A DNA stretch of 63,958 bases, filler included, from Babesia bigemina (Eukaryota): assembly GCF_000981445.1 (NCBI RefSeq). It is 8 parts of 8 records of this genome, joined end to end, with 100 filler letters (N's around TTAATTAATTAA, not from the genome) between each part and the next. Parts side by side here need not be neighbours in the genome. Positions count along the whole stretch, not along the records: positions 51,009 to 61,735 come from NW_012237253.1; 7 more parts are not named here. The stretch is one strand, 5' to 3'. Both the position numbers and the translations under genes were made by a program. Below are positions 7,591 through 63,226 of this stretch, one piece after another. The notes under the pieces were generated by a model. The model was not told the DNA's origin. It did no database searches and was given only the letters and a program-made list of their open reading frames with translations. Numbering within the stretch: position 1 is the stretch's first letter; each line of letters opens with the position of its first letter.

Positions 7591-7635
7591 GTTGATACTG
7601 ACCATTCTCTTACTGACGCTGCTACTAAGAAAGCC

Positions 7636-17600: not shown

Positions 17601-17837
17601 GGCTCTTCTAGTAGCATCGTCAGTGAGAGAATGGTCAGTATCAGCAAGTTTTTATAAAGGTTTAAAGAGGTCATAGCGTTAATATGGCGAGGTAATTCGA
17701 AGGATTTGGAGATAGGGTGAACATGATGGGACATGGCAGTGGCAAGAGGTGGAAGAGGGAAGTGGAGGGTGACAAGGCACAAGTTATTGCTATGGTTTAT
17801 AGAGGTCATTGGGGTATTATGGCGAGGTGATTCGAGG
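17597..17837 (-). promoter_or_regulatory. Cassette leader (class B) with 70-codon uORF 17809-17597, out of frame with ves
   Basis: ORF track plus duplicated leader motif. Confidence 0.6.
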
Positions 17838-25414: not shown

Positions 25415-25525
25415 ATGGTCAGGGCAGTGGCAAGAGGTGGAAGAGGGAAGAGAAGGGTGACAAGGGACAAGTTATTGTTATGGTTTATAGAGGTCATAGC
25501 GGTAATATGGCGAGGTAATTCGAAG
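25415..25525 (-). promoter_or_regulatory. Cassette leader (class C)
   Basis: Homologous to 29115-29228 and 36610-36723. Confidence 0.6.
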
Positions 25526-29270: not shown

Positions 29271-29387
29271 AACCCTAAAATTACCTTAAATAATGACCCT
29301 GCTAACATCCTTAATAACCTTTGTACTGGCCTCGAGAAATTCCTCGGCTTCAACTCTGCTACCAAAGGCTACGATGGCCAGGGGATT

Positions 29388-36765: not shown

Positions 36766-36882
36766 AACCTTAAAAATACCTCAAATAACAACCCTACTAT
36801 CATCCTTAATAACCTTTGTGACGGCCTCGAAACCTTCCTCGGCTTCAATCCATCTTCCAAAGGCTACAATGGCCAGGGGATT

Positions 36883-44060: not shown

Positions 44061-47000
44061 TTATGGTTGCAGGTAAAACAGTTTGTTAAGCTTGTTAACA
44101 CGTGCGGCGGCGAGTAGTGATTGAGCAGCGATACGATGCGATGAGGGACTATGCAAATGCGATTTGATGTGGAGCGTGTCGAGGCGGATGACCATGATGT
44201 GGAGGAGGTACAGGAAGGAGAGGAGCCAGAGGGCGACGGTGGTCCAGAAGAATTTCTCCCTAATGGCCCATATGAATTTGGGGATTACTTCATGTACCAA
44301 TTTGGCGAGTGGTGCACCGTCACTGATTTTATCGCTCAGAACTTTCTGCAATGCGTTACATAGATCTTTGCACGTACGCATTGTCTCTTCGCCGTTTTCA
44401 CCGCTCATGTTTGATAGACTTTTGAAAACGAACCCATATTTGCAGAACGTGGGACGTGTGAACGGACAGTGGGATATGGGTTTGCATAACTGGTTGTGAT
44501 GGTGATCGGTAGGTGCGGCGGCAGGGGTTTTGCTTTCGGCAGCAGATGCCAGAGATGCGTAGTGAGATTTGACTTTGCAATCCGGGACGCAGGTCTTTCC
44601 GTGGCAACGTGAGCCAGCCGATGTACAATTTTTGCAACACTCTTCATATAATTGATGTAGCAAATTATAGAAGGACTCAGTGAGATAGACAATCCACGAC
44701 AGATAGTTGGCTGCGTTTCGTTTGGAAAACACAGTCCATGTATTAGCGCTGATAGGTTGTAGATATCGGCCGCAGTTGGTTACTGATTTGCTGTCACCCC
44801 CGCAAACGAGACTTAACAAGTCACGATTTTTGTTATGCTCCGAATGATTACGATCGAACAGAAGTGATACATTCATATCTGTGTATCGTTCTCCGAAATA
44901 AGCTTTGGTGACTGCATCATCAAATGCATCCTCTCTGTGCGCCTTGTCGTCGTCCTTGCCTTGTCCTTTAATCTGCCACCCATACAGGAAATTATAGTAA
45001 AAGGCAAACATGTCACCTAATGTCTTAGGCGGCGTACTTAATAAGCACGTCAAATATTTACACAATTGGCTAAGAGGGCTACCCGAGTTTCCACAGAATC
45101 TTTCGAGAGCGTTCCCAATGTGCTCGCCTTGCTTAGTATGCGATGCAACGTTGCTAATGTTACCAAATCCTAGTGGCGTTTTGCACGTTATGCCCCGGTG
45201 GTTCGACACAGTGCACTCCGCCTTACAGCCAACCTTGTCGAATTTATGTGGTAGGAAGCCAGGCAAACCATCCTCTAAGTATGACTGGAGAGGAGATTTG
45301 ACACCGCACTTAGGATGTTCATCACATATTTGGTTAGCCGCTTGGTTACCTTTTTGGTTAGGCTTTTGGTTGCCTTTTTGGTTACAGTCTTGGTTGGCAC
45401 ATTGTAAGGTGTTGCACCTCCAATCTGATCCGCCCACGTACCTACCATACCAGCAATCGCGCCAGCTATTAGCCTTCGATGTGCGTTGACACTGCACCAA
45501 GAGGAAATAAAGTTGGTCATGGAGTCTGTACGCAACATCTACGAGCGTATCGAAGCAGTCCGCCGGATTGACCGGATACGAAAACCCATCTTCGTTTGCG
45601 CTGAAGTCACAAGCATATACGCCGTCGTTATGGCCGTGTCCGAGGATCGCGATCAATATTGTTTTTGCGTATCTACATACATCGTAAATCGCGTCGCATA
45701 CGTCCCTAGGCTTAATGGTTGACGTGCCGACTAGTTGGAGATCATTAACGGAAATATCTTTATAATCACGATCCTCATATTTCTTAGGTTTCGAGAACAA
45801 CGTTTTAGTGTAATCTTCGACTTTGCTTAGCATCGCGTTGTACCGCAAACCAGCACACCACTTAAGCATCGCGAAAACTGTTGTAGGAGACTTCGGTGAT
45901 GGCGTAACCCTGAGATGGCATACATAGTGATAGCAGCGCAAACAGTCCGTCAAGTTATTGATGGCTGCTGTACTTAACATTTTCGTCAGGAAACCCTTAA
46001 TATTTGAGCCTTGGCATTCATCCTTATTGCGCAAGATACCGTCATGGCTGTCCGTTTTGGTCGAAACCTTATATCCCCGCTGAGCGAAGAATTCGCCGAG
46101 ATATGTATTCGAATTAATTTTCTTATTAAGCCACTCCCCTCCAATGTTACATTTCTCATAAATAACTCTCATGTCTGCACTCACCATAGGCACTATGCTG
46201 AGACACACCTTCGCGCACTTCCGGCCGTAATCGGTTAATGTGATTTCTTTTCCTTTAGGTGTAGTCAACCCTTCTTTAAACGTTTCCATCGAGTACCTAC
46301 TCACATACCCCTTCCCCAACTCTCCCACGAATCCCAGCATCCCTGCCTGCAGCGCCTTGAGCACGGGCCGTCCTGCGTCCGGCAGCGCTTGGGGGTCGAG
46401 GGCGGAGGTGGAAGAGGAGAGGGTGGCGAGCTTACTAAGAGAGTCATTGAGAGACGTTAAATAAGACGCATATATGTGATCAAAACTACAGTGCCTTGTT
46501 GAATTTTTGTTGAGGTAATTTAGTAAGTTGTCCAGTACGGTTTTGATGTCTCTGACCCGCTCGGACTGCTCGGTGGGCTGGCGCCTACTTTTACTAGAAT
46601 CGCCAATAACGTAGCTCACTTCATGTTGAGCATAACGTAAAATTAAGTCCACATAATTTTTGAAATACTCGGATATTTGGAGGAATACTTCACTATAAGT
46701 CTTCGCTGTTGCAGCTGGATGGGTCGGCGTAGTTAAAGAAGCTAAAACCTCTTGAATTCTAGTAACTTCATTTTCTTGCTTATTAATCCACTTCATTAAA
46801 CCCTTTATACCGCTCGCTAAATCTTCTTCGATGGCGCTTCTAATTTTGGGGAGCTCATCCGATACTGAGGCGTGAATGGCCTGTAACTCGGCTTTCTTTT
46901 GTGCTGCGAACAATTGCTGAATACCATCTTCCAGGTCACCAAATGCTTCACCAATCCCGCGTTGCAAGCTTATTTTTAGCGCCGACATGGCAAGGTTGGC

Positions 47001-49886
47001 ATTGCTTTTGGCATCTCGTACGGAATCATCAAGTTGTGCAATGGCTGAATCGAAGGCTTTCTGTGCATTGGCCACGCGTGGTGAAATGGCTGTAATGTGA
47101 AATTGAAGACTCTGGATTCTGGATTTCAATTGTTTCATAATGTCATCAGCGTTTTGTCTTTTGCCGTCTACATCGTTGGGAACCTTTTTAAGTAAATCGA
47201 GTTGTTGCTTAATTTGCCGAACGGCAGATTGCAGAGTTCTCTCTGATTCGTCAAACTGAGTCATCATGGACCTGACGTCGATTTGGCTTTCCCCGCTTTT
47301 TATTTTAAATTTATCAAGCGCCTCCGTGATTGCGGTTTTAGCCCCGCCTATGACTTGCTTTATGGCATTGTTATGGAATTTAGTGATGGCGCTAGGAAGT
47401 CCATTTTTGACCTCGGAATTGAACTTTGTGACAAGGTTCTGCTCAACCTCGGTTTTGACAGCCTTAATTGCGTCGTCAACGGCAGACGCGTAGTTAGTGC
47501 CATTTATACCCATTCTCATCACCGTTTTAAGTCTTTCACCAAGTATTTGGCTCACATGTGATACGGTTCTTAGCTTACTACAATCCGAATCCCTGATAAA
47601 TACGGATATATCATCGACTGCACCTTTGGCACCGGAGTGTAGACACGCCAGTAGAATCCTTATGGCCAATCTGAGAGGCGCTTGGTCAGGAAGTACTTGG
47701 ATACCTTTTGACTGTAGGTAACCTTCAATTTCTACAACAGCACCGCTAAGTGTCTGTTCGGCATTCTGATCACTGATCAGATAACCTTCTAGATATCGCC
47801 CAAATCTGCTCAGCTTATCGAAAAGCTCACTTAATGTTTTAATGCCATCCAGTCCGGCGGCATTCGCAGCAGCATCCATAAGTAATTTAGAAATGTAAGC
47901 TTTAACATAAAGCTTAAGTGCTTCTTTAACAGTATTCTTGTTTAGCCTAGTACGGAGACTTCGCATACTTGCACTATTAACATACTGATCGATATGTTGC
48001 TTTATGGCGCCTTCACTTGACACGATACCTTGAACCATCGTTCGTATAGCAGACTCGAATTTGGTCTTGAACTGCCTAGCATACTCGTCAAGATTCGCAG
48101 ATATCCCATGTATACCTGAATGGTTTCCCAGTTCACCCTTATTTATCCTGTCCACCTGTTCTTGAATATGCTTGATAATGAGTTCAATTTTTTGATTACC
48201 TGCTTCCTTTCCTTCTCCTGCATCACCTGTTGTAACAACACCGTGAAGCTTTCCGATCGCAGTTTCCACTTGTGTTAACAAACTACTAAGCAACCCCTTG
48301 ATCTTATTTTCGAAATTATTCTCGAGATTTCCATCGTCATTATTCTTCTTACCAGTCAATTTTTCAAGCGCCTCTTTTGCCGTTTGAAGAGCAGACATCT
48401 CGGATTTCAGAATATTATTGTCATTGAAATCATCATTAATACGTCTGTCGATCCCACTTATGTGGCTCTCTAAAACTTCTAACCCAGCGCGTACATCATC
48501 TTCCAGACCCTTAACTTCTGTCTGCACAATGCTAAATTGCGTCTGAAGCATAGTGTCGGTGCCATTATCCCTAGCAAATCTCTCAATATTGGTCTTTATC
48601 GTGGTGAAAAGTTTTGAAATCTGCTGATGATAATTTTTATCAAACCCCTTTTCCGAAGCGTCGAGTAAACCGTCCACCAACTGCTGAGTTTTTGACACGG
48701 CGTCAACGATGTGTTGCATATGAGCACGTTTTTGCTGCTTTATGTTATCGATTTTATTTTCAATAGTGGTATAATTCTCATTCAAAGCTTCAAGTACTTT
48801 CTGTATGTCATTCGTAATTAGGTCATTAATTTCACTACGATGCTGCAAAAATTTATCAGTCAAGTCACTAACAGAATTAATGACACTGTCATCATTAACT
48901 GACGTCCAAAAATTTCTAACCACATGTCTTATTAAGTCTATTTTTGGCTCTACTTGTGTTTTTAAAATACCGTCAATATCATTTAAGGCATGCTCAGATT
49001 TTTCGACGTCCTGAACATATAAGCTAGAGAATCCACGCCATGTAGCCAATTGATCAGTAATAGGATTATGTTCCATATTAGCAGATTTGTGTCCATTTAA
49101 TGATTCTAAAAGATTTTCTAAAGGTCTCATCACTTTTTTATTTTTTTCATTAACCTCCCCCAACCACCCCGCAATCCCCTTCTTGACCGGCTCAATCACA
49201 GCCTGCAAACCTTTTTTGCCTTTATTGAGATTTTCATTTAATGTATTTACTGCTGTTTCTAATGTGTTTTTGTAAGGTGAAAGGTTATCATTTTCATGTA
49301 CGTCTTTGAGAACACCACTCAAAAATCCCATCACCCCGTCACACAGCCTGTCAAGGTCGGAGTAGACAATGCCCTGGCCAGTGTAGCCTTTGGAGTTCTT
49401 ATCGTAACCAAGAAAAGTCTGAAGGCCGTCACATAAATTATCTAAGAGGTTTTTAGGATTATTTGATGCATTTTTAAGATTCTTATAATTTTCACAAAGC
49501 TCCTCCACTTTCCTCAAAGCGTCCAACTTGGAGTGCAATTTGGCTAGCTCAGCAGAGGGAGAGGGGGAAGAAGGAAGATTATAAAGGTTATTAGGGCTAT
49601 TAATACGTTGATTTATGTCATTAATTTCTTGAGTAACTCGCTGACTAAGCTCACTAATTTTCTGGTTGTCACCAGCCTGGTCAACAGACTTGACAGACTC
49701 AGAAAGCTTAGTAACATGAGAAGAGTAAGCATCATTTAGGTCAGTTTTAAGATCTTCATTAGTGTCGAAATAAGCTTTAATAGCATATATAACAGCTTCC
49801 TTAACACTCTCACTCTCACCAACAAATCCGCCAAGCTGTCCAGCCAGGTGACCAAGGCTAATGAGCTTGGAGTCAATGTCCTTCAA
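44061..49886 (-). CDS. ves1: ves1-like cassette, 5'-defective (TTG at ORF start)
   Basis: 1941 open codons with family motifs, TM helix, tail KLFYLQP. Confidence 0.85.
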   Translation of the reverse strand: MKDIDSKLISLGHLAGQLGGFVGESESVKEAVIYAIKAYFDTNEDLKTDLNDAYSSHVTKLSESVKSVDQAGDNQKISELSQRVTQEINDINQRINSPNNLYNLPSSPSPSAELAKLHSKLDALRKVEELCENYKNLKNASNNPKNLLDNLCDGLQTFLGYDKNSKGYTGQGIVYSDLDRLCDGVMGFLSGVLKDVHENDNLSPYKNTLETAVNTLNENLNKGKKGLQAVIEPVKKGIAGWLGEVNEKNKKVMRPLENLLESLNGHKSANMEHNPITDQLATWRGFSSLYVQDVEKSEHALNDIDGILKTQVEPKIDLIRHVVRNFWTSVNDDSVINSVSDLTDKFLQHRSEINDLITNDIQKVLEALNENYTTIENKIDNIKQQKRAHMQHIVDAVSKTQQLVDGLLDASEKGFDKNYHQQISKLFTTIKTNIERFARDNGTDTMLQTQFSIVQTEVKGLEDDVRAGLEVLESHISGIDRRINDDFNDNNILKSEMSALQTAKEALEKLTGKKNNDDGNLENNFENKIKGLLSSLLTQVETAIGKLHGVVTTGDAGEGKEAGNQKIELIIKHIQEQVDRINKGELGNHSGIHGISANLDEYARQFKTKFESAIRTMVQGIVSSEGAIKQHIDQYVNSASMRSLRTRLNKNTVKEALKLYVKAYISKLLMDAAANAAGLDGIKTLSELFDKLSRFGRYLEGYLISDQNAEQTLSGAVVEIEGYLQSKGIQVLPDQAPLRLAIRILLACLHSGAKGAVDDISVFIRDSDCSKLRTVSHVSQILGERLKTVMRMGINGTNYASAVDDAIKAVKTEVEQNLVTKFNSEVKNGLPSAITKFHNNAIKQVIGGAKTAITEALDKFKIKSGESQIDVRSMMTQFDESERTLQSAVRQIKQQLDLLKKVPNDVDGKRQNADDIMKQLKSRIQSLQFHITAISPRVANAQKAFDSAIAQLDDSVRDAKSNANLAMSALKISLQRGIGEAFGDLEDGIQQLFAAQKKAELQAIHASVSDELPKIRSAIEEDLASGIKGLMKWINKQENEVTRIQEVLASLTTPTHPAATAKTYSEVFLQISEYFKNYVDLILRYAQHEVSYVIGDSSKSRRQPTEQSERVRDIKTVLDNLLNYLNKNSTRHCSFDHIYASYLTSLNDSLSKLATLSSSTSALDPQALPDAGRPVLKALQAGMLGFVGELGKGYVSRYSMETFKEGLTTPKGKEITLTDYGRKCAKVCLSIVPMVSADMRVIYEKCNIGGEWLNKKINSNTYLGEFFAQRGYKVSTKTDSHDGILRNKDECQGSNIKGFLTKMLSTAAINNLTDCLRCYHYVCHLRVTPSPKSPTTVFAMLKWCAGLRYNAMLSKVEDYTKTLFSKPKKYEDRDYKDISVNDLQLVGTSTIKPRDVCDAIYDVCRYAKTILIAILGHGHNDGVYACDFSANEDGFSYPVNPADCFDTLVDVAYRLHDQLYFLLVQCQRTSKANSWRDCWYGRYVGGSDWRCNTLQCANQDCNQKGNQKPNQKGNQAANQICDEHPKCGVKSPLQSYLEDGLPGFLPHKFDKVGCKAECTVSNHRGITCKTPLGFGNISNVASHTKQGEHIGNALERFCGNSGSPLSQLCKYLTCLLSTPPKTLGDMFAFYYNFLYGWQIKGQGKDDDKAHREDAFDDAVTKAYFGERYTDMNVSLLFDRNHSEHNKNRDLLSLVCGGDSKSVTNCGRYLQPISANTWTVFSKRNAANYLSWIVYLTESFYNLLHQLYEECCKNCTSAGSRCHGKTCVPDCKVKSHYASLASAAESKTPAAAPTDHHHNQLCKPISHCPFTRPTFCKYGFVFKSLSNMSGENGEETMRTCKDLCNALQKVLSDKISDGAPLAKLVHEVIPKFIWAIREKFFWTTVALWLLSFLYLLHIMVIRLDTLHIKSHLHSPSSHRIAAQSLLAAARVNKLNKLFYLQP

Positions 49887-49924
49887 GGCTCTTTTAGTAG
49901 CATCATCATAACGACGGGAGTGGG

Positions 49925-50122
49925 AAGTAACAAGTTATGGTCATAATTAATGGAGGTCATAGCGTTAATATGGCGAAGTAATTCGAAGGATTTGGAGTTA
50001 GGATGAACATGATGGGACTTGGCAGTGGCAAGAGGTGGAGGAAGGGAAGTGAAGGGTGACAAGGCACAAGTTATTAGGATGGTTTATAGAGGTAATAGCG
50101 GTATTATGGCGAGGTGATTCGA
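49925..50122 (-). promoter_or_regulatory. Cassette leader (class B; first ATG mutated to ATT)
   Basis: Duplicated leader motif. Confidence 0.6.
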
Positions 50123-50908: not shown

Positions 50909-51008
50909 NNNNNNNNNNNNNNNNNNNNNNNNNNNNNNNNNNNNNNNNNNNNTTAATTAATTAANNNNNNNNNNNNNNNNNNNNNNNNNNNNNNNNNNNN
51001 NNNNNNNN
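50909..51008. other. Assembly linker
   Basis: N-TTAATTAATTAA-N. Confidence 0.98.
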
Positions 51009-53476
51009 AACGTATAATTTACGAGGTCAATGAGCACGTAAGTATGAGCGGTAGATTGCACAACGGTCAAGTAATGAATGCACAGGCAGACAGGGTGACA
51101 CAGCTGGGTAGTGGTCAAATGTGAAAAATGATGAGCGTATAAATAGGAAGTGTAATATATCCACAAAAGTGTATTTTCATCTATAAGTCACATAACAATT
51201 TTAATACTAACATGAGTAGTTATTAAGCATGTTACACCATACGTTTCCAATTGATGTACATTTGAATAGTCAACACAATCACCTATGCTTTTACTTAACT
51301 ATTTACATACAACCTTATTCCACACGCTAACAATATAATTCAGAATGTTTTTGCACAGTAACTACACCGCTAACTCACCAGCCGCTCCCTGCTGCGCTGA
51401 TGCTCCCGTGCTGGGCGAATTGCTGTCCGACGGCATGTTGCGATTTGCGAAACGATGGTTGACTAAACAGCATCTTAATGACACATAAACAGCATTGTAA
51501 AATACGCAGCACATCTGTCTGTCACGTCTAAGAGATGAGCCATTAGGTCGAGGCACGCAGCGGAGCTGCCTAGTGCTGGGTAGGTGGTGCACGGAAAACT
51601 GTATTAATTTGTGCGCTACATGCCTTTCGTATCACGTATGTGACGCTGTTATTACGTGGTATTCGCTGCGTGAGTGCCGGTCGCTGCATGTCTTCTGGCG
51701 GACAGGTAGCTGACGTGTACGGCGTATTATCGCCGACATGATTACGCGATGAATAGCATTCTCATGTCTTCATATGTATGGAATGATGTTATAATAATCG
51801 CTATGTCAACTAACCTTGTCACTTAGCTGTTGTCCGTAGTGGTCGTGGCCACGGCGTTACATGTTGCGTTTTCCACTGCTCACGTTTCACCTAGCGGAAT
51901 GATTTGTTTTGTCACGCATCCCTAATCACGTCACTAATCACATCTCAGACGCATAATTACTTGACTAGCCGCCTATAATTTTCCTGGACGACGTGGCCCG
52001 TTTCCTCTTCGTCCTAGGCTACCAGGGGTGTCGGCGCTGTGCTAGACCTGGCGGAGGGTATCCGCCGTGCATTTGGAATAACGTCGTTGATGCGATAATA
52101 TGTCATTTGATGATGTGATTGACAGTTTCTCAGCTGTATAACAATTTTGCCTTATCAGAGCAAATCTCACTGCTAGCGATGCAACGTTGATTAAGCTGGA
52201 ATGTGCGTGAAAACCGCTTCATCAATAATGCGTTGTTGCTAGTCGAGCGCGGTACGCGCATGTGACGGTATACACATGGTAGCGATTATGTAGCCAAAGA
52301 GACAAGAGACGCCGCGATTGGCGTCAGATGAGCTAGTAACCAAACACAAGGCAACGTCAGTTGCCCGTGTGACTGAAATAAGACGAATGGACGAAATGGG
52401 AATACACAAATCAGCGTCGCAACGCTGAGTAACAATATCACGAGCAGATTCACGTGATAGAATGTTAACACGTAAAAATAGCGATAAGCAATTAGACTAG
52501 CGCACAATTTAACGCGGTGGCACATGTGATAATTAACAGTGTACTTCTGGTCACGAAGCAGCTGCGATAAGCTGCCGTGATAAACAAGCAGACTAGCAGC
52601 GAGTTAAGCACGTCGTAGAGCGGAAGGCGTAAGCCGGGGGAATGGGAAAGTAGAGAGGGAGGGTATCAGTCAGCTATCAATTCAGCCGTTTACTTAGCTA
52701 TTTGCTTATCTTCTTGGTTACCTCTTTGGGTACCTTCTTGGTCACCACGTTACTCAGCCGCTTGTTCACGGCTTCGTTGCTCCTCTCACCCTTATCGGTG
52801 ATCACATATTCGTAGGCATTACTGCCGCTCTCGTAGCTCATCTAGCGAACACTTTCGTTGCTCTTCACTGCTCCTGATGAAGGAACGGGCGCCTTCAGGA
52901 ACGGTTGGGAAGGGCCGGGAACTGGGCGAATGGTTGTAGCTCCGATTTGGAGGCAACCCAGCTTTTGAGGCTGGGTGAGAGTTGAGTGTTTGAGTAAAGA
53001 GTGCGTATGAATTTGATTTGAATAGAAATTAGCAGCGTAGTCATATGTAACGTAGGTGCGCATCGTCACTTATTCGAACGTTTTACCCCATCCCCGTGGG
53101 AGACCGGCCGGCGCATGGTGATGCGATATGGAATCCTCAGTGCGATGTCGTTGTTGACTGGAAGGCTGGGCAAGAGCCGTGAGCAGGAGCGAATGGCGCC
53201 GGAAGGGAGAGCGAAGGCCGAGATTCCGCTGAGGTAGGTGGTCGAGGTAGCGATATAAACGGTTTTCCTTGTTAGGTGAGCGAGGAAGGCTGCGAAATTG
53301 GTGAGTTTTTGCGTGATTCCATAACGTAGTGTGACTGTGAGCGAGATTCCATCGAGATTCCATGTGCATGAGTTTGAGTTGAGTTATGTAATGTAGCTGT
53401 GGCATGCGTGTTGAGTGCGGGTGGTCGTGATTAGTTTGAAACGTGAGTGAAAGTGCGAGGTAAGTGAGCCTTGAAA
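51009..53476 (+). promoter_or_regulatory. Unique, satellite-free upstream region of the full-length ves gene (putative promoter/5' UTR)
   Basis: Longest non-ves, non-repeat DNA in the window; function inferred from position. Confidence 0.4.
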
Positions 53477-56400
53477 ATGAGGCATGTCCCTAAGAAATTA
53501 ACGGACTGTCCGGAGAATCTCCGTGAGTCCATAGACTGGTTGATCCAGGTTAGGTATGGGAATGGTGGAGATGGTCTTACCAAGTTGTCAAAAGCTTTGA
53601 AAAAGTTGATTGAGGAAGCTATAAATAACGCTACTAAGTCCCTTACAACCGAAAAATCTAAACTTGAATGCCCCTTCAAATACTCTGATAAGGAGACTTA
53701 CTGTCAGTACTACCAGAGACTGCATGACGAGGCTGAGAAAAAATTCAAAGAATCCAAAAAAACCGTTGAAAATATCCCAGATAATCATAGTATTAACTTC
53801 TATAAAACATGTCTAGAAGATTGTAAAAATGCTCACAAAAAACATCCTCCATCTCCTGCCTTGAAGTCTGTTGAAGAGAAGATTGTCCAGCTTGGTGAAT
53901 TGGCTGGTAAGCTTGGAGGATTTGTTGGTGAGAGTGAGAGTGTTAAGAAAGCCGTTGTGAAAGCTATTAAAGCTTGTTTCGACACTAATCCACACCTTAA
54001 AAAAGACCTAAATGATGTTTACTCTTCTTATGTTACTAAGCTTTCTGAGTCTGTCAAGTCTGATGGCCAGGCTGATGACAACCAGAAAATTAGTGAGCTT
54101 AGTGAAGCAGTTAAGAAAGAAATTACTCTAATTACTCAACGTATTAATAGCCTTAATAACCCTCTTAATCCCTCTCCTTCTTCCCCCTCTGCCTCTGCTG
54201 AGTCAGCCAAATTGCAGTCCAAGTTGGAGGCTTTGAAGAAAGTGGAGAAGCTTTGTGGATTTTATGAGAATTCTAATAATCAACAAAATGAGCCTAAAAA
54301 TCTCTTAGATAATTTATGTGACGGCCTTCAGACTTTCCTCGGCTTCAACTCTGCTTCCAAAGGCTACGATGGCAGTGGCATTGTGTACTCTGACTTGGAT
54401 AGGCTGAGTGACGGGGTGATGGCGTTTTTCTATGGTGTTCTCAGTAACATCAAAGAGCATTTAGGGCAGCATAAAAACATTTTAGATAATGCAATTAGCA
54501 TTCTTAACACCAATAAACACCTTGGTAAAAAAGGTTTTAATGCTGCGATTGGACAGGTGGTTGAAGGGGTGCGGGGGTATAATGATGCTGTCATGAAGTC
54601 TAATAATAACGTTAAAAATGTAGTCGAAGAATTGTACAATTACATAAAAAAAGACGCAGCGTTTGAAAACGAATTTGTTAAAATTCAAGTTGATAATGTG
54701 ACTGGGAAGCCAGATGACGCTGAGGTAAGAAAGGCAGAGAACTTAGTGACTCAATGCCTAAAAAATGCCAATAAATTTAACGAAGCTTTAGATGTCAGTA
54801 CGAAAAAAGAAATTAAAAAATCAATCGACGACTTAAATCCTAAGTTACGCGATAATGTAAATAACGTTCGTGAGTCCGTTAAAATTGAAACTGAGCGTCT
54901 TACAGAGTTCTCGTCGAAAGAAAAATCAGACCTTCGAGAGACAACGGAATACATCAGTGAGCTGTTGAAAAACCTGAAAGTGAACGTCGATTGCAAAATT
55001 GACGCGCACATTAAAGACCTCATTAGGAGGATTCGCGAGAAAGTCCAGACTATTTTGGATGAGCTGAACAAAATCAACAAAGACTTTTGGCAGTACGTGA
55101 ACGAGTTGGGAACGTGGATAAAGGATGCCGAGCCGTTCGTGGATGACGCGTTGAGGAAGATTGAGATCATTTTGCGGCAAGTGAGTTCGGACGGCGCCGA
55201 TCAGAGGCCCAGACTTATCAACGAGACAGCGGAATTGATTAGAATGCAGGCTCAGATAATTCACGGTGACGTGGAATTGGCCAGAGAAAGAATGGAAAAG
55301 TTAGTGCCGGAGGCAACGAAAAAAGTTGAGCAGTTGACTACGTGGAAGAATGCGGGCACGACGGCCGTTGAGAGGGCGAAACAAAAGTGTGAGCAGATTG
55401 GTGGGATGGTTGAGACTGAAAATGGTACAAAAGATAAGATTCATGGAATCGCTAACGATATGAAAGATAAGGCTGAGAATCTTAGAAAGGCGGCGCATAA
55501 GGTTAAGAGTGGTATTGACGGTTGGGTGCAGCAGGCTACGCGGAAAATTGGGGAGTTGGAGGAGTGGATTAAAAAAGAGCTTTTTAAAGTAAAAAACAAC
55601 ATTCAGGTATCCATTAAAGATTTTGTCACTAATCAGGTTAAGTCTGTAGTCAACGCAGCAAAGCACGTTACGGGTCCGGTGACACTTAACACAAATGGTG
55701 ACACTAGGCCCGGAATCACGCAGCTTATTAATGAAGTTGGACAAACAACGCAGTTCGGAAAATTATTTAAACTGCTTGAACGATCTGCAGATGACAAAGA
55801 TAACATTGCATTCTCCATTGAATACGCCATGTATGCTCTCAATAAATTAAACAGCAAGACGTCGATCGAATTGGATGACAAAAATCCGGTTGTGAAAGCT
55901 TTGACGGACGATCTCGTCGGCCTACTGAATGTGCATTTGCATGATGCAATTACGAGGCGTGCAACTACAAACTCACAGACGGAGTCACAAATTAACTTGA
56001 ATGATACGATGAGTGGATACAACCGAGAAAAAGGCAAAGTAACAATGGAGCTAACCGGTCTCAAACGTAACGTTGAAACCAATCTAACCGCTGAAGAAAG
56101 TGTCAAACAAACGATCGAAGATAACAATAGCTTCACCGGCCCCTTCACCAAAATCGAGCAACAACTCCAAAAGATCGCAGGGCTGGTTGACAGCGACAAA
56201 CCTACGCCGGGATTAGTTGATCCTAAAACTGGCGTCAAAAACTACCTGGATGATATCACAACCCTGCTTGGCAAAGCTCCCGTCGTACTCACCTCCGATA
56301 TAAAAGGCGACCACAATGGTGTCCAAGGCCTCGAGAAGATCAAGGAAGAAATCGACGGCGCGCTCGGAGGTATTCAAACTAAAGTAACGGATGCTCTACA

Positions 56401-59400
56401 AGGCGTCAACCAAGCATACGCCGATCTGCAATCCCACTCCTATACCATCACTTCCAGACTCACCGAGCTGTGTTCCGCCATCAAGTCAGCTGCCGAGCTG
56501 GATCCTGATAGTGCGAAAAAAAAATTAACTGAGTTGAAGGAGAAGTATTTCGAGGAACAAACGAAAACTAGCAAACATGCGGACAAAAGCATCAAAAAGA
56601 TTCGCGACCAACTGAAAGCGCTCCAAAACTTTCTGCAGAGTGGTCCCATCACCAAGGCCGACAGCGTGATTGCATTCCTTTCTACTGCCGAAAAAAGCTT
56701 CAAGAAGGAACTGACGGAAGAGATCGACAAGGACATCAAACAGGTCACCGAGAAACTAATCACCCATTCGCGCAAGCAATACGTCACGTCTCTTATGGAC
56801 TTGCTGACCACTTTCGCCGACAGAGTTTCCTCTGAGCTGGCGGAGCTGCCAACCCAAATCGGCGCGGACCTGGAACAGGGGCACAAAAAATTCATGAACT
56901 TATTTGAAACTAACATCGTTACTGAAGTTAAGAAGATCCTTCCTATCAATACCGATCACAGAGGCAAGAATGAGTTCCCGCTGAACAAGGCGGCAAGCAT
57001 ATTTAAACAGGGTTTAACAAGTTTCTTCAAAACTTTGAAAGAGCTACCAGACTTCAAGTCCGACTTCAACTTTATTCGACCTCCATACAGCACGCTGGTA
57101 AAATTGCTTACCGGAATCATTAGTTCCCTTCACTTCAACGACGACTTCATCGTGAACTTGGATGCACTGAGAGACCAGCTGAGTAAGTTTCATCCTGCCA
57201 AGTTCGGGGAGGGACAGAATCATTTCATTCTAGAAGCGCTGAGGAAAGCGTTTTCTAATTATGCTGAGGAGCTGTCCAAGGCCTACATCTCCGCCTACGA
57301 CGGCGCTGGCAATATCAACTGGGATCAAGAAAACAACCCGGAGACCACATACTGCGCTAAGATATTCTTGACCGCTTTTTCCACAATTCACGATGCTGTG
57401 CATGACTTGAGAATAAATTGCAATAGTCTGAAGGGACATCAAATTCACTCGACCTCTGATCTCGGCAGGTTGTTCCTACGGCACGGCTTCAGAGTATCAC
57501 ACGGCGACAAACAGCACTGGGAGCTGCAGAACAAGCAGATCATTAACGGTGAATACGTCCTTAAGAGAATCAGTTTCAGGGTCGATGGTGCGAAAGAGAA
57601 CGAGCATCTCAAGGAGTGTGAATCGAATGAACGAAAGACGAACTATTTTTTTAATCTTTTCGATATTCTCACCTGCCTTCTGTATCACATTGAGAAGTAC
57701 AACGAGGTTTGCCATATTGGCACTTTTGATGCAAAGAGACAGCCATGTTCAGTATATGAGATGCTGATTTGGCTCAGCGGCCTGACTCACAACCGCGTGC
57801 AGTCCGCCATGGTCGGACAAACGTTCCTTGAGCTACTGAAAGATCCAGCGAAGGAGGCTAGAGAGGCGCAACAAGAAGAGGAAGTGGACGAACCTATAGT
57901 CCTAGAAGTGGACCCAGCATCTATATCCCTCGAAGCATACCCGAAGAACATAGAATTTGTCAGACTTGACGCGACACTGACACGTATATGTTCAAAAGCG
58001 TACGATCTTATTTGCACAATCGTTGGACCGGGAGACGAATACACTACCTACGGGTGTGACTACTCCAACAATTCGTTCAAGCTGAAGTATCCCAGTGACC
58101 CTGCCGCTTGCTTCGACATGCTCGTCGATATACTTCGCCGACTACTTCCGCAGCTCAGATATCTTTTTAACCGCTGTTATGTCGATGCCGAAAACCACGG
58201 TTGGCGCGACTGCGAATACGGTCGAACCACACGTACGACCAAATGGCCGTGCAAGGAGCACTCAAAGAGCAAACCAACGTGCCAGGCAACGTGTCAACCA
58301 AATGACCAACCAAAGTGCCAACCAACTTCCCCCCTAATGAGCTATTTGAACGATTGCTTGCCTGGCCACTTGCCTCATCAATTGAGCTCTATTGGTTGCA
58401 AATACGAATGTTTGACATGCCCTTCCACTTCGAAGTTTGGAATGCCTTGTATGACGCCCTTGGGATTTAGGGCGTTCTCCGGATCGACTAAAACGGGTCG
58501 TGATATATGTGAAATACTCCGGCAATTTTTCGGTACTGGCCGACTCTCATCTTTCCTTTGCCTTGTTCCTACGCCGCCGAAAACTCTACCAGAGCACTTC
58601 AACTTCGCTCTATCGCTCGTACGAGAATGGGAAGCTATCGCTACACGCTGGTATGAAAAGCCTATCGAACAATCGATTGAGACAGTTTCTATCGGTCTCT
58701 TTAGAAATCCCCGTGAGCTGACAGATGCACTTCGTTATGTTTATGGCAGCAGCCAAAATAACCATGGCGCTTTTCACCCAAATCCCTCGTCGGCTGATGT
58801 GTCAAGTTTGTCGATGCGGAAGGTATGTACTGGTATAGAGGAGCACTGTGCTCCATATATCGAAACTCTTTGTTCGGATTCATACGCTTACTTACCTTAC
58901 AAGCATTCCGACACGTACTTGTCCTGGGCTGTATATCTCCCATGGACATTCTGGCAATTACTTAACAATTTGTATAACGCTTTCTGTAATATTAATTGCC
59001 AAGACTGGGGCTGTCGTGAATGTTTGAAAGGCGACAAGTGTAAACGTGGACAACATGGTCTTTTCAAATTGGTTGAAAAAACCAAGCAACCTCACTGCCA
59101 GTGTTCGTCTATCGTCAGTTGCAATGGTGTGTCTCCAACTTTGTATCAATATGGATTTAGTTTCGGTGATGTATCTATGTTGAATAACAATAGCAGCAGG
59201 AAAACCTGTTCCGATTTCTGCACTCAATTAAAGAGAGTGCTTGACTGCAGTTATTTCAAGACATTGTTTACAAAATGCGACGAATTCATCTTCACCATCA
59301 GAGAGCCGTTTATATGGCTTAACGTCGCGCTCTGGTCACTATCTCTCTTCTACCTCATCTGCGTCATGGTTGGCAGACTGGATGTGCTGCACATCCGGTC

Positions 59401-59500
59401 ACACCTGAGGATACCGTCATCGCACAAGATAACGGCGCAATCATTGTTGGCGGCGGCGCAAGTCGGAAGGCTTGCCAAGATATCGTACCTACAGCCGTAA
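53477..59500 (+). CDS. ves1: Full-length VESA/ves1-like variant surface antigen (2007 aa from ATG)
   Basis: AAAATG start; MRHVPKKLTDCPENLRESIDWLIQV N-terminus; SDLDRL motif; Cys-rich domain; TM helix; tail KISYLQP. Confidence 0.92.
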   Translation: MRHVPKKLTDCPENLRESIDWLIQVRYGNGGDGLTKLSKALKKLIEEAINNATKSLTTEKSKLECPFKYSDKETYCQYYQRLHDEAEKKFKESKKTVENIPDNHSINFYKTCLEDCKNAHKKHPPSPALKSVEEKIVQLGELAGKLGGFVGESESVKKAVVKAIKACFDTNPHLKKDLNDVYSSYVTKLSESVKSDGQADDNQKISELSEAVKKEITLITQRINSLNNPLNPSPSSPSASAESAKLQSKLEALKKVEKLCGFYENSNNQQNEPKNLLDNLCDGLQTFLGFNSASKGYDGSGIVYSDLDRLSDGVMAFFYGVLSNIKEHLGQHKNILDNAISILNTNKHLGKKGFNAAIGQVVEGVRGYNDAVMKSNNNVKNVVEELYNYIKKDAAFENEFVKIQVDNVTGKPDDAEVRKAENLVTQCLKNANKFNEALDVSTKKEIKKSIDDLNPKLRDNVNNVRESVKIETERLTEFSSKEKSDLRETTEYISELLKNLKVNVDCKIDAHIKDLIRRIREKVQTILDELNKINKDFWQYVNELGTWIKDAEPFVDDALRKIEIILRQVSSDGADQRPRLINETAELIRMQAQIIHGDVELARERMEKLVPEATKKVEQLTTWKNAGTTAVERAKQKCEQIGGMVETENGTKDKIHGIANDMKDKAENLRKAAHKVKSGIDGWVQQATRKIGELEEWIKKELFKVKNNIQVSIKDFVTNQVKSVVNAAKHVTGPVTLNTNGDTRPGITQLINEVGQTTQFGKLFKLLERSADDKDNIAFSIEYAMYALNKLNSKTSIELDDKNPVVKALTDDLVGLLNVHLHDAITRRATTNSQTESQINLNDTMSGYNREKGKVTMELTGLKRNVETNLTAEESVKQTIEDNNSFTGPFTKIEQQLQKIAGLVDSDKPTPGLVDPKTGVKNYLDDITTLLGKAPVVLTSDIKGDHNGVQGLEKIKEEIDGALGGIQTKVTDALQGVNQAYADLQSHSYTITSRLTELCSAIKSAAELDPDSAKKKLTELKEKYFEEQTKTSKHADKSIKKIRDQLKALQNFLQSGPITKADSVIAFLSTAEKSFKKELTEEIDKDIKQVTEKLITHSRKQYVTSLMDLLTTFADRVSSELAELPTQIGADLEQGHKKFMNLFETNIVTEVKKILPINTDHRGKNEFPLNKAASIFKQGLTSFFKTLKELPDFKSDFNFIRPPYSTLVKLLTGIISSLHFNDDFIVNLDALRDQLSKFHPAKFGEGQNHFILEALRKAFSNYAEELSKAYISAYDGAGNINWDQENNPETTYCAKIFLTAFSTIHDAVHDLRINCNSLKGHQIHSTSDLGRLFLRHGFRVSHGDKQHWELQNKQIINGEYVLKRISFRVDGAKENEHLKECESNERKTNYFFNLFDILTCLLYHIEKYNEVCHIGTFDAKRQPCSVYEMLIWLSGLTHNRVQSAMVGQTFLELLKDPAKEAREAQQEEEVDEPIVLEVDPASISLEAYPKNIEFVRLDATLTRICSKAYDLICTIVGPGDEYTTYGCDYSNNSFKLKYPSDPAACFDMLVDILRRLLPQLRYLFNRCYVDAENHGWRDCEYGRTTRTTKWPCKEHSKSKPTCQATCQPNDQPKCQPTSPLMSYLNDCLPGHLPHQLSSIGCKYECLTCPSTSKFGMPCMTPLGFRAFSGSTKTGRDICEILRQFFGTGRLSSFLCLVPTPPKTLPEHFNFALSLVREWEAIATRWYEKPIEQSIETVSIGLFRNPRELTDALRYVYGSSQNNHGAFHPNPSSADVSSLSMRKVCTGIEEHCAPYIETLCSDSYAYLPYKHSDTYLSWAVYLPWTFWQLLNNLYNAFCNINCQDWGCRECLKGDKCKRGQHGLFKLVEKTKQPHCQCSSIVSCNGVSPTLYQYGFSFGDVSMLNNNSSRKTCSDFCTQLKRVLDCSYFKTLFTKCDEFIFTIREPFIWLNVALWSLSLFYLICVMVGRLDVLHIRSHLRIPSSHKITAQSLLAAAQVGRLAKISYLQP

Positions 59501-59667
59501 TTGTATTCACACTTCTAATTCACAGCAACTCACGTAACAACTCACCTACTCACCTAACAAACAAACGTAGTCTAATGTCTCGAATTACTCTAGCGGCAAC
59601 CTGTGAAATAAATAGCAGCTAAATTAGGAGATGACTAAACGACAATGCAACGTGTTAACCTAGCAGT

Positions 59668-59785
59668 CAGGCAAAGTGATAAGCTAGCGCCCAGGCAAAG
59701 TGCTGAGCTAGCAACCAGGCAAAGTGCTAAGCTAGCACGCAGGCAAAGTGCTAAGGTAGCACACAAGCTAAGTGCTAAGGTAGCG
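59668..59785 (+). repeat. 24-bp tandem repeat x5 (CAGGCAAAGTGCTAAGCTAGCACG)
   Basis: Direct reading; 8-aa periodicity in ORF 59635-59817. Confidence 0.85.
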
Positions 59786-60292
59786 GATGAACCGTAATTT
59801 GGTGGGTGTTGTAGCACGTCGGTTGGTTGTTGCGTTGAGTTACGCGTTGACTGTGAGAGGTGTCTGCGTTGCCCATTGAGTCAGTGTCACGTGAGGCTAG
59901 GTGATTTGTAGCTAACGTAGGCGGCCGTGAGGGCCGCGGCGGGTGACCCAAGTCGTGTGTTGCGAGTCACTGGCAGGGTGGCGTAATCCGCGTTGGCCTG
60001 GTTAGGTAGCGTTTATAGGCGACAATGTAGCGATCGTTAATATCACATTTAGGCACGTAGCCGACACGCTCCGCCAGCATGGCGTCTTTACCGCGGCTCG
60101 TAGCACGGTGCTGCTGCACTGTGGGAGTTGAACGCACGGGGTTCGCTGCAATTTTAACCGTGTTGCGAATAGTGAATAATTTAGATTGGCGGTTGGTGCT
60201 GATGACATGCGTCGCGTCAGGGCAGCTGTGGTATCCCGGGCAGCGTGGGTGTCGGAGCCAGGGCTGGGGGGATACAGGGGTGAGGGTGAGTG

Positions 60293-60990
60293 TTGATGAG
60301 GGGACTGGGAGCGGCAGTGGTAGTGTTGCAGTTGGTGAGTGCTGCTTGAGTGATTGATGTTCGCAGGCTGAGGGGAGTGGGAGCGGCAGTGGTACGTGTT
60401 GCAGTTGGTGAGTGCTGCTTGAGTGACTGATATGTCTGCAGGTTGAGGGGACTGGGAGCGGCAGTGGTACGTGTTGCAGTTGGTGAGTGCTGCTTGAGTG
60501 ACTGATATGTCTGCAGGTTGAGGGGACTGGGAGCGGCAGTGGAACGTGTTGCAGTTGGTGAGTGCTTGCATAGGTGATTGATATGTTTGCAGGTTGAGTG
60601 ACTGGGAGCGACAGTGGTGCGTGTCGCAGTTGGTGAGTGCTTGCTTGAGTGATTGATATGTCTGCAGGTTGAGGGGACTGGGAGCGGCAGTGGTAGTGTT
60701 GCAGTTGGTGAGTGCTGCTTAGGTTATTGATATGTTTGCAGGTTGAGGGGACTGGGAGCGGCAGTGGTACGTGTTGCAGTTGGTGAGTGCTGCTTAGGTG
60801 AGTGATATGTTCGCAGGTTGAGGGGACTGGGAGCGGCAGTGGTACGTGTTGCAGTTGGTGAGTGCGTTGCTTGAGTGATTGATATATTCGCCGGTTGAGG
60901 GGACTGGGAGCGGCAGTGGTAGTGTTGCAGTTGGTGAGTGCTTGCTAGGTGATTGATATGCTTGCAGGTTGAGGGGAGTGGGCGCGGCAG
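60293..60990 (+). repeat. ~75-bp tandem repeat, 9-10 units
   Basis: GACTGGGAGCGGCAGTGG recurs at e.g. 60450 and 60525; 25-aa periodicity in ORF 60002-60571. Confidence 0.93.
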
Positions 60991-61260
60991 CGATGACAGG
61001 GGACTCAGCAGCGATGACATGGTCACGGCAGCGATGACATGGTCACGGCAGCGATGACTGGTTACGGCAGCGATGACAGGGGACTCAGCAGCGATGATAT
61101 GGTCACGGCAGCGATGACATGGACACGGCAGCGATGACATGGTCACGGCAGCGATGACATGGTCACGGCAGCGAGGACATGGTTAAGGCAGCGATGACAT
61201 CAACACGGCAGCGGTGACATCAACACGGCAGCGATGACATGGTCACGGCAGCGATGACAG
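60984..61260 (+). repeat. 20-bp satellite
   Basis: Direct reading. Confidence 0.94.
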
Positions 61261-61280
61261 TGACACAAGTGGTGATTATT

Positions 61281-61735
61281 ACCCACTCCACATCGCTCCT
61301 TAACCCACTCTACATCGCTCCCTAACCCACTCTACATCGCCCCTTTATCCACTCTGCATCGCCCCTTTATCCACTCTGCATCGCCTTTTTATCCACTCTG
61401 CATCGCTCCCTTATCCACTCTACATCGCTCCCTAACCCACTCTACATCGCTCCCTAACCCACTCCACATCGCCCCTTAATCCACTCTACATCGCCCCTTT
61501 ATCCACTCTACATCGCTCCTTTATCCACTCTACATCGCCCCTTTATCCACTCTACATCGCCCCTTTACCCACTCTACACCGCTCCTTATCCACTCTACAT
61601 CGCCCCTTTATCCACTCTACATCGCCCCTTAACACACTCCACATCGCCCCTTCACCCACTCCACATCGCCCCTTTATCCACTCTACATCGCTCCCTTATC
61701 CACTCCACATCGCTCCTTACTCCACTCTACATCGC
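61281..61735 (+). repeat. ~22-bp satellite
   Basis: Direct reading. Confidence 0.96.
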
Positions 61736-61835: not shown

Positions 61836-63162
61836 CCAGATCAACATTTTTTTCGGCATCATCTATTAGATTCTCCGCCTGCTCCATCCATTTGCGTAAT
61901 GATTCGATATGGTCCCGAAACCTAGTGCCAAGGCTCTCCAGCTGACCGAGAATCTCTCTCACTGATTTTTTCAATTGCTCCACAAGATCCTTTATATGCT
62001 TATCAATTGTCGTATGTAAACGCTTCTTAAGCTCATCTATCTCTGCATATAAAAAATCTTTCGTCGCCGTTAACTCCTCACGTTCCTTCTTAGACAGCTC
62101 AGTGAGACGCTTAGTCTCATGCTCTATCGTCACACGTACATTTTCGATCTTTTCACGTAAGCTACTATTAAGATCATTAATCGCGTTTCTATTATCAATG
62201 GAATTTGTGTTAATATCTAAATCATTTGTGAAGCTCTCAGCATATTCCCAGCACTCACCCAACCTCTCTTTAACCGCCAGTTCTGCTTGTCCTATTTGCT
62301 TGGAATTACCTGCAACAGCATTAACTATAGTTATTTCACTCACCTTATTTTCAAGCTGCTGCATATTGCTCTGCATTGTAGTTACAATGCTTCTAACTCT
62401 ATTGTTAGACTGCTGCACTTCCCTGTTATACTCCGCGATGCCAGCAGGCAACACGGTGAAAAGCTTCTTAAAACCCTCGTGCCCTGAGCAAAGATGTTTG
62501 TTAATTTCATCACTTACCGAATTTAATGTATTTTTACCGACATTGTATGTCTGAGTGTTTTTCACCGCCTCAAGCACACCACTCAAAAACGCCATCACCC
62601 CGTCGCACAGCCTATCAAGGTCAGAGTACACAATCCCAGTGCCGGTGTAGCCTTTGGTAGCAGAGTTGAAGCCGAGGAATTTTTCGAGGCCGGAACAGAG
62701 GTTCTCTAAAAGGTCTTTACAATTGTTTTTTTCAGTCAATCCAGTAAGACTCTCTTTGAGCTTTTTAACCTGCTCCAACTTGGAGTCAATGTCCTGCAAA
62801 GCTTTCTTAGTAGCATCGTCATAACGACGGGAGTGGGAATCGGAGCATGATTTTACAGCAGTTTTATATAGCTCTAAATTTGACGCATTATTAGATTTCT
62901 GGTTATTTTCAGGTTTTTCAGCTTCCTTAATCAGCTTACCAAAATACTGGCAAGTGGACTCATTTCCCTTATACTTAACAGGGCATTCAAGTTTATCTTT
63001 TTCGGCTTGGAGGGACTTTTCAGCCTTCTCAATAGCCTCCTCAATCAACTTTTTCAAAGCTTGAGACAACTTGGTAAGCCCTTCATCACCTTGACCATTC
63101 CCATACCTAACCTGGATCAACCAGTCGATGGACTCAGTCAGAAGGTGAGGGAAGGGTGACAA
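61836..63162 (-). CDS. ves1: 5' part of ves1-like cassette (class A junction), 3' end lost in gap
   Basis: LLTESIDWLIQVRYGNG...GIVYSDLDRLCDGVMAF; first ~75 aa nearly identical to the 1400 copy. Confidence 0.82.
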
Positions 63163-63226
63163 GGCACAAGTTATTATTGTGGTCTAAAGAGGTCATAGCG
63201 GTATTATGGCAAGGTGATTCAAGGGA
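63138..63226 (-). promoter_or_regulatory. Cassette leader (class A) with uORF MTSLDHNNNLCLVTLPSPSD*
   Basis: Homologous to 1342-1431. Confidence 0.6.

What the first reader, a model, noticed from the sequence alone, without database searches (positions are those of the whole stretch)
53477..61735. Single full-length ves gene with private C-terminal tail and private 3' flank: candidate expression site
It has 16 N-terminal residues (MRHVPKKLTDCPENLR) absent from all cassettes. Its tail differs (LICVMVGRLDVLHIRSHLRIPSSHKITAQSLLAAAQVGRLAKISYLQP) from the nearly uniform cassette tail (HIMVIRLDLLHIKSHLHSPSSHRIAAQSLLAAARVNKLNRVFYLQP). It lacks the upstream 22-mer and downstream 12-mer. Fixed private ends around a variable middle fit a conversion recipient, but could also just mark another subfamily.
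Basis: partly seen in the sequence, partly recalled or inferred. Interest (0 to 1): 0.7.

Follow-up and report, generated by a model that had tools for sequence, protein, structure and literature searches.

The report
Start-bearing head for startless antigen cassettes
In the cattle blood parasite Babesia bigemina, this surface-antigen gene is one of four found that put a normal start codon in front of a gene type otherwise stored as dozens of start-less copies, so it is likely a site where stored copies are recombined in and switched on; its tail end is ordinary.

Summary
The ORF (53477-59500, 2007 aa) is a B. bigemina ves1b gene on its own 10,727-bp contig; neighbours across the N-linkers are not proven neighbours. 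The tail is not private: 37 other B. bigemina proteins among 84 carry it, none with a native start as annotated. The 3' flank is multi-copy in a second DNA run. The 5' end is the real signal. All 8 window cassettes with a visible 5' end lack the start. Three more gene models have the same MRH[VT]PKK start with different bodies. In run X1 the flank plus codons 1-17 lie on one low-depth contig, 7 of 9 changes being synonymous, and a 12-fold deeper contig begins exactly where cassette homology begins. All three sister models are among 10 unplaced-contig genes in a published in-vivo RNA-seq list. Best reading (0.6): one of one to four start-bearing recipient sites for start-less array cassettes, working like Pneumocystis UCS/msg-I or Mycoplasma vlhA. 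Switching, promoter activity and RNA of this very gene are not shown; about 27 separate intact ves1b genes exist and are seen in a proteome.

The parts
51009..52892 (.). Distal upstream flank of the focal contig; no 22-mer array, no long ORF, no Rfam match
   Evidence: partly covered in run X1 at depth 9-17
52893..53476 (+). Proximal 5' flank, candidate promoter and 5' UTR (inferred)
   Evidence: covered with the start by one 667-bp contig of run X1, depth 5.42, 76 other letters; 10 substitutions in the last 186 bases
53477..53527 (+). Native start, codons 1-17, missing from all cassettes
   Evidence: ATG kept and 7 of 9 changes synonymous in run X1
53524..53567 (+). Junction shared with cassettes (ESIDWLIQVRYGNG codons); candidate recombination entry point
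   Evidence: homology with cassettes 1394 and 63183 begins here; one 47-base contig of depth 66.8 begins at 53524 in X1
53477..59500 (+). Full-length ves1b ORF, 2007 aa, mosaic body, one predicted C-terminal membrane helix (residues about 1945-1963)
59360..59500 (+). K-type (KISYLQP) cytoplasmic tail, a common subfamily tail
   Evidence: last 69 residues identical to P0098
59647..59784 (.). 24-mer array, 5.8 copies; likely the K-type counterpart of the cassette 12-mer
   Evidence: summed depth 4676 in X1
60985..61259 (.). 20-mer array, shared inter-cassette spacer
61279..61735 (+). 22-mer array in the orientation that precedes a cassette; cut by the contig end, so the gene likely heads a tandem array
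1394..6802 (+). Start-less V-type cassette, homology to the focal gene from codon 16
7588..9561 (+). Start-less cassette (3' cut by contig end), homology from codon 273
11715..17651 (-). Start-less V-type cassette, homology from codon 128
19997..25471 (-). Start-less V-type cassette, homology from codon 282
29271..34544 (+). Start-less V-type cassette, homology from codon 283
36766..41475 (+). Start-less V-type cassette, homology from codon 276; closest to the focal gene over residues 1701-1900
44061..49934 (-). Start-less V-type cassette, homology from codon 139
61836..63183 (-). Start-less cassette (3' cut by contig end), homology from codon 16
50909..51008 (.). Artificial contig linker (N44, 12 bases, N44); the same at 61736-61835

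Best explanation
This is a full-length B. bigemina ves1b gene whose low-copy 5' flank and first 16-17 codons likely act as a promoter-and-start module into which start-less array cassettes are recombined for expression, one of probably one to four such sites per genome. Shown: the start is absent from cassettes, low-copy and conserved in a second run, and sits on four different bodies. Taken from a paper's table by id arithmetic: three sister models have RNA reads in infected cattle. Inferred: cassettes are silent donors; recombination enters at shared blocks (codons 16-30, about 128-139, about 273-322) by segmental conversion or by a crossover that brings a whole cassette with its tail, 3' flank and the rest of its array; the 22-mer, 20-mer and 12/24-mer arrays serve the arrays themselves (duplication, silencing), not entry into this site, because the site has no upstream 22-mer. 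The roughly 27 intact chromosome-internal ves1b genes are a second, self-sufficient class.
For: (1) 8 of 8 window cassettes with a visible 5' end lack the start; their leader ATG (7 of 8) reads only 19-70 codons. (2) Among 84 B. bigemina proteins, 78 have a K- or V-type tail and no native start, and only the focal gene joins the array type to a native start. (3) P0121, P0175, P0176 share the start (26, 30 and 26 identical residues with the focal protein) and diverge after it; in a tree of the 52 residues after the junction the 4 rows need 4 changes, each lying among cassettes (few columns, group support 90/77, open). (4) P0175 residues 19-145 are identical to BBBOND_0310230, whose own start is degenerate, then change partner; the focal protein shares 55 identical residues with cassette P0190 and 48 with P0012. 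(5) Run X1: one contig at depth 5.42 over flank and start, against 2.0-4.4 for six coding pieces and 66.8 for the junction contig; 7 of 9 changes in codons 1-17 at third positions, P = 0.008. (6) PMC10975891 Table S1: 10 of 519 genes lie on unplaced contigs; 3 are P0121, P0175, P0176 (offset checked at 3 anchors; chance about 3e-6 for about 650 unplaced genes), 0 of 13 unplaced cassettes with known ids, and none of the named internal genes among the rows seen.
Against: No switch was observed. No RNA read was tied to the focal gene itself: 4 of the 7 strongly negative unplaced rows could not be matched to a sequence. That table is a list of differences, with many near-zero rows in one group, not a census of expression. 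The blood/kinete table of PMC9806345 (3,723 rows) holds none of the three sister models and no row with the focal coordinates, while about ten 4-6 kb unplaced genes, one a known K-type cassette (P0041), have 12-156 blood reads. The PR proteome lists 18 ves1b rows, 11 of them internal intact genes of my set, so this is not the only route to VESA1b. Rare shared tracts cover 0.16 of the focal protein against a cassette median of 0.24 (87 cassettes): it is no more mosaic than a cassette. No whole donor was found (best B. bigemina hit 67% over the last 508 residues), though identical copies would collapse in assembly. P0175 and P0176 end after 259 and 274 residues. X1 is one low-depth run of coded origin. 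The DNA flanks of the three sister models could not be seen.
Confidence: 0.6

Rival explanations
1. Static paralogs: the four start-bearing genes are the surviving intact members of a subtelomeric ves1b subfamily, transcribed in place; the cassettes are decayed tandem duplicates and mosaicism is background recombination among all copies, with no dedicated recipient.
For: Mosaic coverage of the focal gene is below the cassette median; no donor for its middle; the reference strain is described as a clone (PMC4066756 section 5) yet has four starts, one differing at residue 4, which fits several loci; RNA on start-bearing genes is expected here too.
Against: About 80 copies keep open frames of 1100-2100 residues with near-uniform tails while all lacking a start, which is hard to maintain without use; bodies diverge right after an identical start; 5' truncations fall on three shared blocks.
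Confidence: 0.25
2. Cassettes are expressed on their own, from the leader ATG behind the 22-mer array (with a short intron or in frame) or from an internal methionine, so the focal gene is merely a longer form.
For: A conserved leader ATG in 7 of 8 cassettes; at least 6 annotated models begin with that leader peptide; low blood-stage counts on some unplaced 4-6 kb genes including P0041.
Against: In 0 of 7 window cassettes does the leader frame run into the long ORF; one lacks the ATG; 0 of 13 identified unplaced cassettes are in the RNA-seq list that holds 3 of 3 sister starts; none of the 8 tagged chromosomal cassettes of my set is among the 18 proteome rows.
Confidence: 0.08
3. Assembly artefact: the four models are chimeric joins of one start with different cassette reads in an 8-fold capillary assembly.
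For: All four lie on short unplaced contigs; the junction is repeated about 12-fold; 8X coverage and Phrap.
Confidence: 0.05
4. One reading: a unique site with both ends private, the KISYLQP tail and 3' flank marking the expressed copy.
For: True inside this window.
Against: 37 other proteins carry the tail; the 3' flank is multi-copy; three sister starts exist.
Confidence: 0.02

Closest known systems
BbigVes1b family (Jackson et al. 2014, PMC4066756)
   Same: 58% identity over the last 508 residues to BBBOND_0303890 and BBBOND_0305380, both labelled BbigVes1b in the paper's proteome table; one C-terminal membrane helix; strong mosaicism.
   Different: The sections read count 80 ves1b and do not separate start-less array cassettes, start-bearing heads and intact internal genes; my searches return 118 B. 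bigemina proteins of this kind.
Babesia bovis locus of active transcription (LAT), segmental gene conversion (PMC6630957, PMC2034396 passages)
   Same: An expressed ves gene altered by segments from silent or truncated copies.
   Different: LATs are head-to-head ves1alpha/ves1beta pairs and many silent loci keep their own promoters and starts; here no partner ves ORF lies in the 2.47 kb upstream and donors are head-to-tail, start-less and repeat-spaced.
Pneumocystis UCS/CRJE/msg-I (PMC5676039 passages)
   Same: A low-copy upstream module with promoter and start; subtelomeric-type genes lacking a start; a short shared junction; several bodies found behind one start.
   Different: UCS is single-copy and encodes a signal leader; every msg-I begins at one 33-bp CRJE. 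Here there are up to four starts, no hydrophobic leader, and only 2 of 8 window cassettes carry the first junction. No homology is implied.
Mycoplasma synoviae vlhA (PMC4206340, PMC2825196, start of abstracts only)
   Same: One promoter site recruiting promoterless pseudogene sequence; nested 5' truncations of donors (recalled, not from a call).
   Different: Bacterial lipoprotein, one site; here a eukaryote with a second class of intact genes.
Babesia caballi ves1c (PMC10463595 passages)
   Same: One telomere-proximal gene takes 38% of family reads, suggesting a dominant site.
   Different: No start-less cassette arrays are described in the passages read.

Membership tests
BbigVes1b | Homology of the conserved C-terminal domain to annotated BbigVes1b | tested here: met
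   58% to BBBOND_0303890 and BBBOND_0305380 over 508 aa
BbigVes1b | Single C-terminal membrane helix with short tail, no N-terminal signal peptide | tested here: met
   hydropathy peak 2.0 at residue 1945, N-terminal maximum -0.03
BbigVes1b | Pfam VESA1 model hit (family name recalled) | tested here: not met
   only a weak Apolipoprotein hit; named ves1b relatives carry none either, so not defining here
B. bovis-type LAT | Divergent ves partner gene on a shared promoter | tested here: inconclusive
   no ves-like ORF in 2,468 bp upstream, only a 47-codon ORF without credible homologs; the contig ends there
B. bovis-type LAT | Progressive segmental conversion of the active gene | not testable with these tools
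   needs serial clones; identical tracts are only compatible with it
UCS/vlhA-like cassette system | Donor copies lack start codon and native 5' flank | tested here: met
   8 of 8 window cassettes by DNA; 78 of 84 proteins by annotation only
UCS/vlhA-like cassette system | Start module single-copy | tested here: inconclusive
   one contig at about 1-2 copy depth in X1 but four models in the reference proteins
UCS/vlhA-like cassette system | One junction shared by the site and every donor | tested here: not met
   2 of 8 window cassettes share the first junction; others enter at codons 128-139 or 273-283
UCS/vlhA-like cassette system | Different bodies behind the same start | tested here: met
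   four proteins; whether behind the same locus is not shown
UCS/vlhA-like cassette system | Transcription from the start module and silence of donors | tested here: inconclusive
   3 sister models in one published list, absent from another; no RNA run was listed for this stretch
UCS/vlhA-like cassette system | Observed switching in a clonal lineage | not testable with these tools
   needs junction sequencing over time

The most novel reading that the evidence does not exclude
B. bigemina has a single (or one dominant) Pneumocystis-like expression site for array-type ves1b: the three models with identical starts are one locus caught with three different cassettes in one clonal population after a week in a calf, and about 80 start-less, repeat-spaced cassettes are its archive. 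That would be a promoter-and-start capture system in an apicomplexan, beside an independent set of intact ves1b genes, and possibly shared with B. ovata.
Probability: 0.25. Interest if true: 0.85.

Novelty: new variant of a known kind. Interest (0 to 1): 0.65.

Why it matters
How B. bigemina selects and switches its variant surface antigen is open: one RNA-seq paper says the role of its VES proteins is unknown and saw no differential ves expression (PMC9806345). A low-copy 5' module gives a primer site that makes the question directly testable, explains why unique-read pipelines on the reference could miss the expressed gene (inferred), and shows that most array-type ves1b gene models, started at internal methionines, are probably not real proteins.

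Tried and rejected
No whole genome is held, so flanks of relatives could not be read. No RNA holder listed for the stretch; no weight given. Exact search of the start in metagenome contigs: 0. Earlier findings: none in 4 look-ups. Rfam: none on the contig. Idea that the ATG lies in a short intron (GTAAGT at 53461, AG at 53493-53494): rejected, X1 changes that AG and keeps the codons. Idea that an exon 1 lies upstream of the 22-mer arrays: no start motif elsewhere in six frames. Small divergent ORF 52698-52841: 2 hits, both repeat proteins of unrelated sources, rejected as chance; the Atlas did not answer. Mosaic enrichment of the focal gene: not found. A link to virulence from PMC10975891: rejected, because a ribosomal protein gene shows the same fold change, which points to near-zero counts in one group. 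'All four are unplaced' as evidence for one site: rejected, most cassettes are unplaced too. Parts of the ORF without cover in X1 were given no weight.
Full report
What the window is. The window is 8 contigs joined by identical 100-base linkers. The focal contig is 51009-61735, 10,727 bp, the length that the protein collection gives for the focal protein's contig. Order and orientation across linkers therefore carry no information. All named relatives are Babesia bigemina or B. ovata proteins; the last 508 residues are 58% identical to BBBOND_0303890 and BBBOND_0305380, which the proteome table of PMC4066756 labels BbigVes1b. That the window belongs to the public reference assembly holding those relatives is inferred. 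Pfam gave no useful hit.

The observation inside the window. The ORF 53477-59500 is intact, 2007 aa, with one predicted membrane helix near residue 1945. The start motif occurs once in six frames. Eight cassettes have a visible 5' end; each follows a 22-mer array and a conserved leader, and first matches the focal gene at codon 16 (2), 128-139 (2) or 273-283 (4); the leader ATG, present in 7 of 8, reads 19-70 codons and never into the long frame. The focal tail matches the 7 cassette tails at 29-32 of 46 residues, those match each other at 42-46. Downstream come a 24-mer and a 75-mer array, then the ordinary 20-mer and 22-mer arrays in the orientation that precedes a cassette.

The 3' end is not private. 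A search with residues 1500-2007 found 378 proteins; the best 120 were listed, 84 of them B. bigemina. Of these 84, 37 have the K-type tail without a native start, 41 the V-type tail without one, 2 another tail without one, 3 are intact genes with other tails, and 1 is the focal gene. 'Without a native start' rests on gene models for these rows; it was checked on DNA only for the window's cassettes, which are V-type. Some K-type models begin with the cassette leader peptide (P0014, P0070, P0089). In the one DNA run listed (X1, coded, low depth), bins 59379-60290 have summed contig depth 1394, 4676 and 329, with single places at 74.7 (1 contig) and 107.5 (5 contigs), against 2-5 for unique coding pieces.

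The 5' end is the signal. Searches with residues 1-70 (58 hits among 97 candidates) and 1-60 among shorter proteins (16 among 62) show two kinds of native start in B. bigemina: 27 genes beginning MAP or MVP, nearly all on the 3.5-Mb chromosome, with varied tails, and 4 beginning MRH[VT]PKK: the focal gene, P0121, P0175 and P0176, each on a short contig. KKLTDCPENLR is common to both, so only four residues are distinctive. The four diverge right after the junction: P0121 is about 29% identical to the focal protein in its best distal block, and in a tree of the next 52 residues the four rows lie apart among cassettes (75 rows, 53 columns, weak support, proteins without the IDWLIQ motif left out). 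P0175 residues 19-145 are identical to BBBOND_0310230, whose start motif is degenerate. In X1 one 667-base contig of depth 5.42 covers 52893-53557; depth is flat to 53519 and a contig of depth 66.8 begins at 53524, where cassette homology begins. Its codons 1-17 keep the ATG and differ at 9 places, 7 synonymous at third positions (P = 0.008), while the last 186 bases of flank differ at only 10. Contig depth is a rough guide only; it suggests one or two copies of the start and about a dozen of the junction.

Expression. Table S1 of PMC10975891 (519 genes, blood of infected cattle, reads shared out among multiple hits) has 10 rows on unplaced contigs. A constant offset between transcript and protein ids, checked at 3 anchors, makes three of them P0176, P0121 and P0175 (logCPM 7.0, 7.3, 7.8); chance is about 3e-6 if some 650 unplaced genes were equally likely; 0 of 13 unplaced cassettes with known ids are listed. 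None of the 25 tagged internal genes appears in the rows seen (six places under two prefixes were not displayed). Four similar rows could not be matched, so RNA for the focal gene itself is not shown. The fold changes likely reflect near-zero counts in one group and say nothing on virulence. Against this: the 3,723-row table of PMC9806345 lacks all three models and any row with the focal coordinates, lacks the internal genes searched as well, and shows low blood counts on some unplaced 4-6 kb genes, including cassette P0041. The PR proteome has 18 ves1b rows, 11 of them internal intact genes of my set, one P0140, six not in my set, none from unplaced contigs.

Results against a special recipient role. 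Rare identical tracts cover 0.16 of the focal protein, against medians of 0.24 for 87 cassettes and 0.08 for 26 internal genes (only the proteins fetched were compared). No whole donor was found, which is not decisive because identical copies collapse in assembly. The reference strain is described as a clone passed once through a calf; four starts, one with a different fourth residue, fit two to four loci better than one. P0175 and P0176 are short, for reasons not seen.

Mechanism. Most likely (0.6) the flank and first codons supply promoter and start, and array cassettes are expressed only after recombination behind such a module, at shared blocks near codons 16-30, 128-139 or 273-322, by segmental conversion or by a crossover carrying tail, flank and array along. 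This explains why the tail and 3' flank are those of a common subfamily and why the gene heads an array. Shown: anatomy, conservation, copy-number step, four bodies. Read from a table: RNA on three sisters. Inferred: promoter activity, donor silence, switching. Rivals are static intact paralogs (0.25), self-expressed cassettes (0.08), assembly chimeras (0.05) and the two-private-ends form (0.02).

Relation to what is known. It is a member of BbigVes1b. It works like Pneumocystis UCS/msg-I or Mycoplasma vlhA but fails the one-junction test and is not shown to be single-copy. It differs from the B. bovis LAT in lacking a divergent ves partner within 2.47 kb and in having start-less donors. Searches found no paper describing start-less cassette arrays or a start-bearing head class in B. 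bigemina; the library lacks most subscription papers.

Papers seen. PMC4066756: abstract, sections 5, 8, 13, 22 (part 1 of 2), 23, 24, 26, passages, supplementary legends and the 18 ves1 rows of its table; no figures, so its gene-model figure may bear on the leader question; supplement file 1 not searched. PMC10975891: passages and Table S1 rows by search. PMC9806345: passages, part 1 and searches of DataSheet 1. PMC5676039, PMC6630957, PMC5660447, PMC10463595, PMC9531838, PMC2034396: passages. PMC4206340, PMC2825196: search listing and start of abstract.

Verdict. Observation partly confirmed; interpretation partly supported for other reasons than given. New variant of a known kind; interest 0.65.

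Noticed in passing
window 52698-52841 (-): A 47-codon ORF divergent from the ves gene, 635 bases from its ATG, ending in three 12-base units that resemble the cassette 12-mer; the region is covered in run X1. No credible homolog.
   Followed up: partly
22-mer arrays, e.g. window 1-1342, 17834-18947, 61279-61735: Extreme strand skew (GC skew about 0.8); the G-rich strand holds GGGTTAGGG 79 times in the window, reminiscent of telomere repeats (recalled).
   Followed up: no
cassette leaders, e.g. window 1343-1432, 63137-63224: A conserved leader of about 90-230 bases with an ATG at +28 follows every 22-mer array; public gene models use it or internal methionines as starts, so many are probably mis-annotated.
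   Followed up: partly
B. ovata proteins: 38 of 73 lack a native start as annotated and most share one uniform tail (ANVKYFSP), hinting at the same cassette layout in the sister species.
   Followed up: no
P0140 (BBBOND_0312140) and P0133 (BBBOND_0310230): Chromosome-3 array-type genes with a nearly intact or degenerate start motif; P0140 is in the PR proteome and shares five long identical tracts with cassette P0099.
   Followed up: partly
PMC10975891 Table S1 rows BBBOND_0004380, 0004980, 0006360, 0006370: Four more unplaced-contig genes behave like the three start-bearing models; their sequences were not seen.
   Followed up: no
window 51009-51956: The distal flank is covered in run X1 at depth 9-17, about three times the proximal flank, so it may be a low-copy repeat.
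   Followed up: no
window 39981-41529 versus 58006-59558: Cassette 36766 (V-type tail) is the closest match to the focal gene (K-type tail) over residues 1701-1900, showing exchange between the two tail subfamilies.
   Followed up: partly
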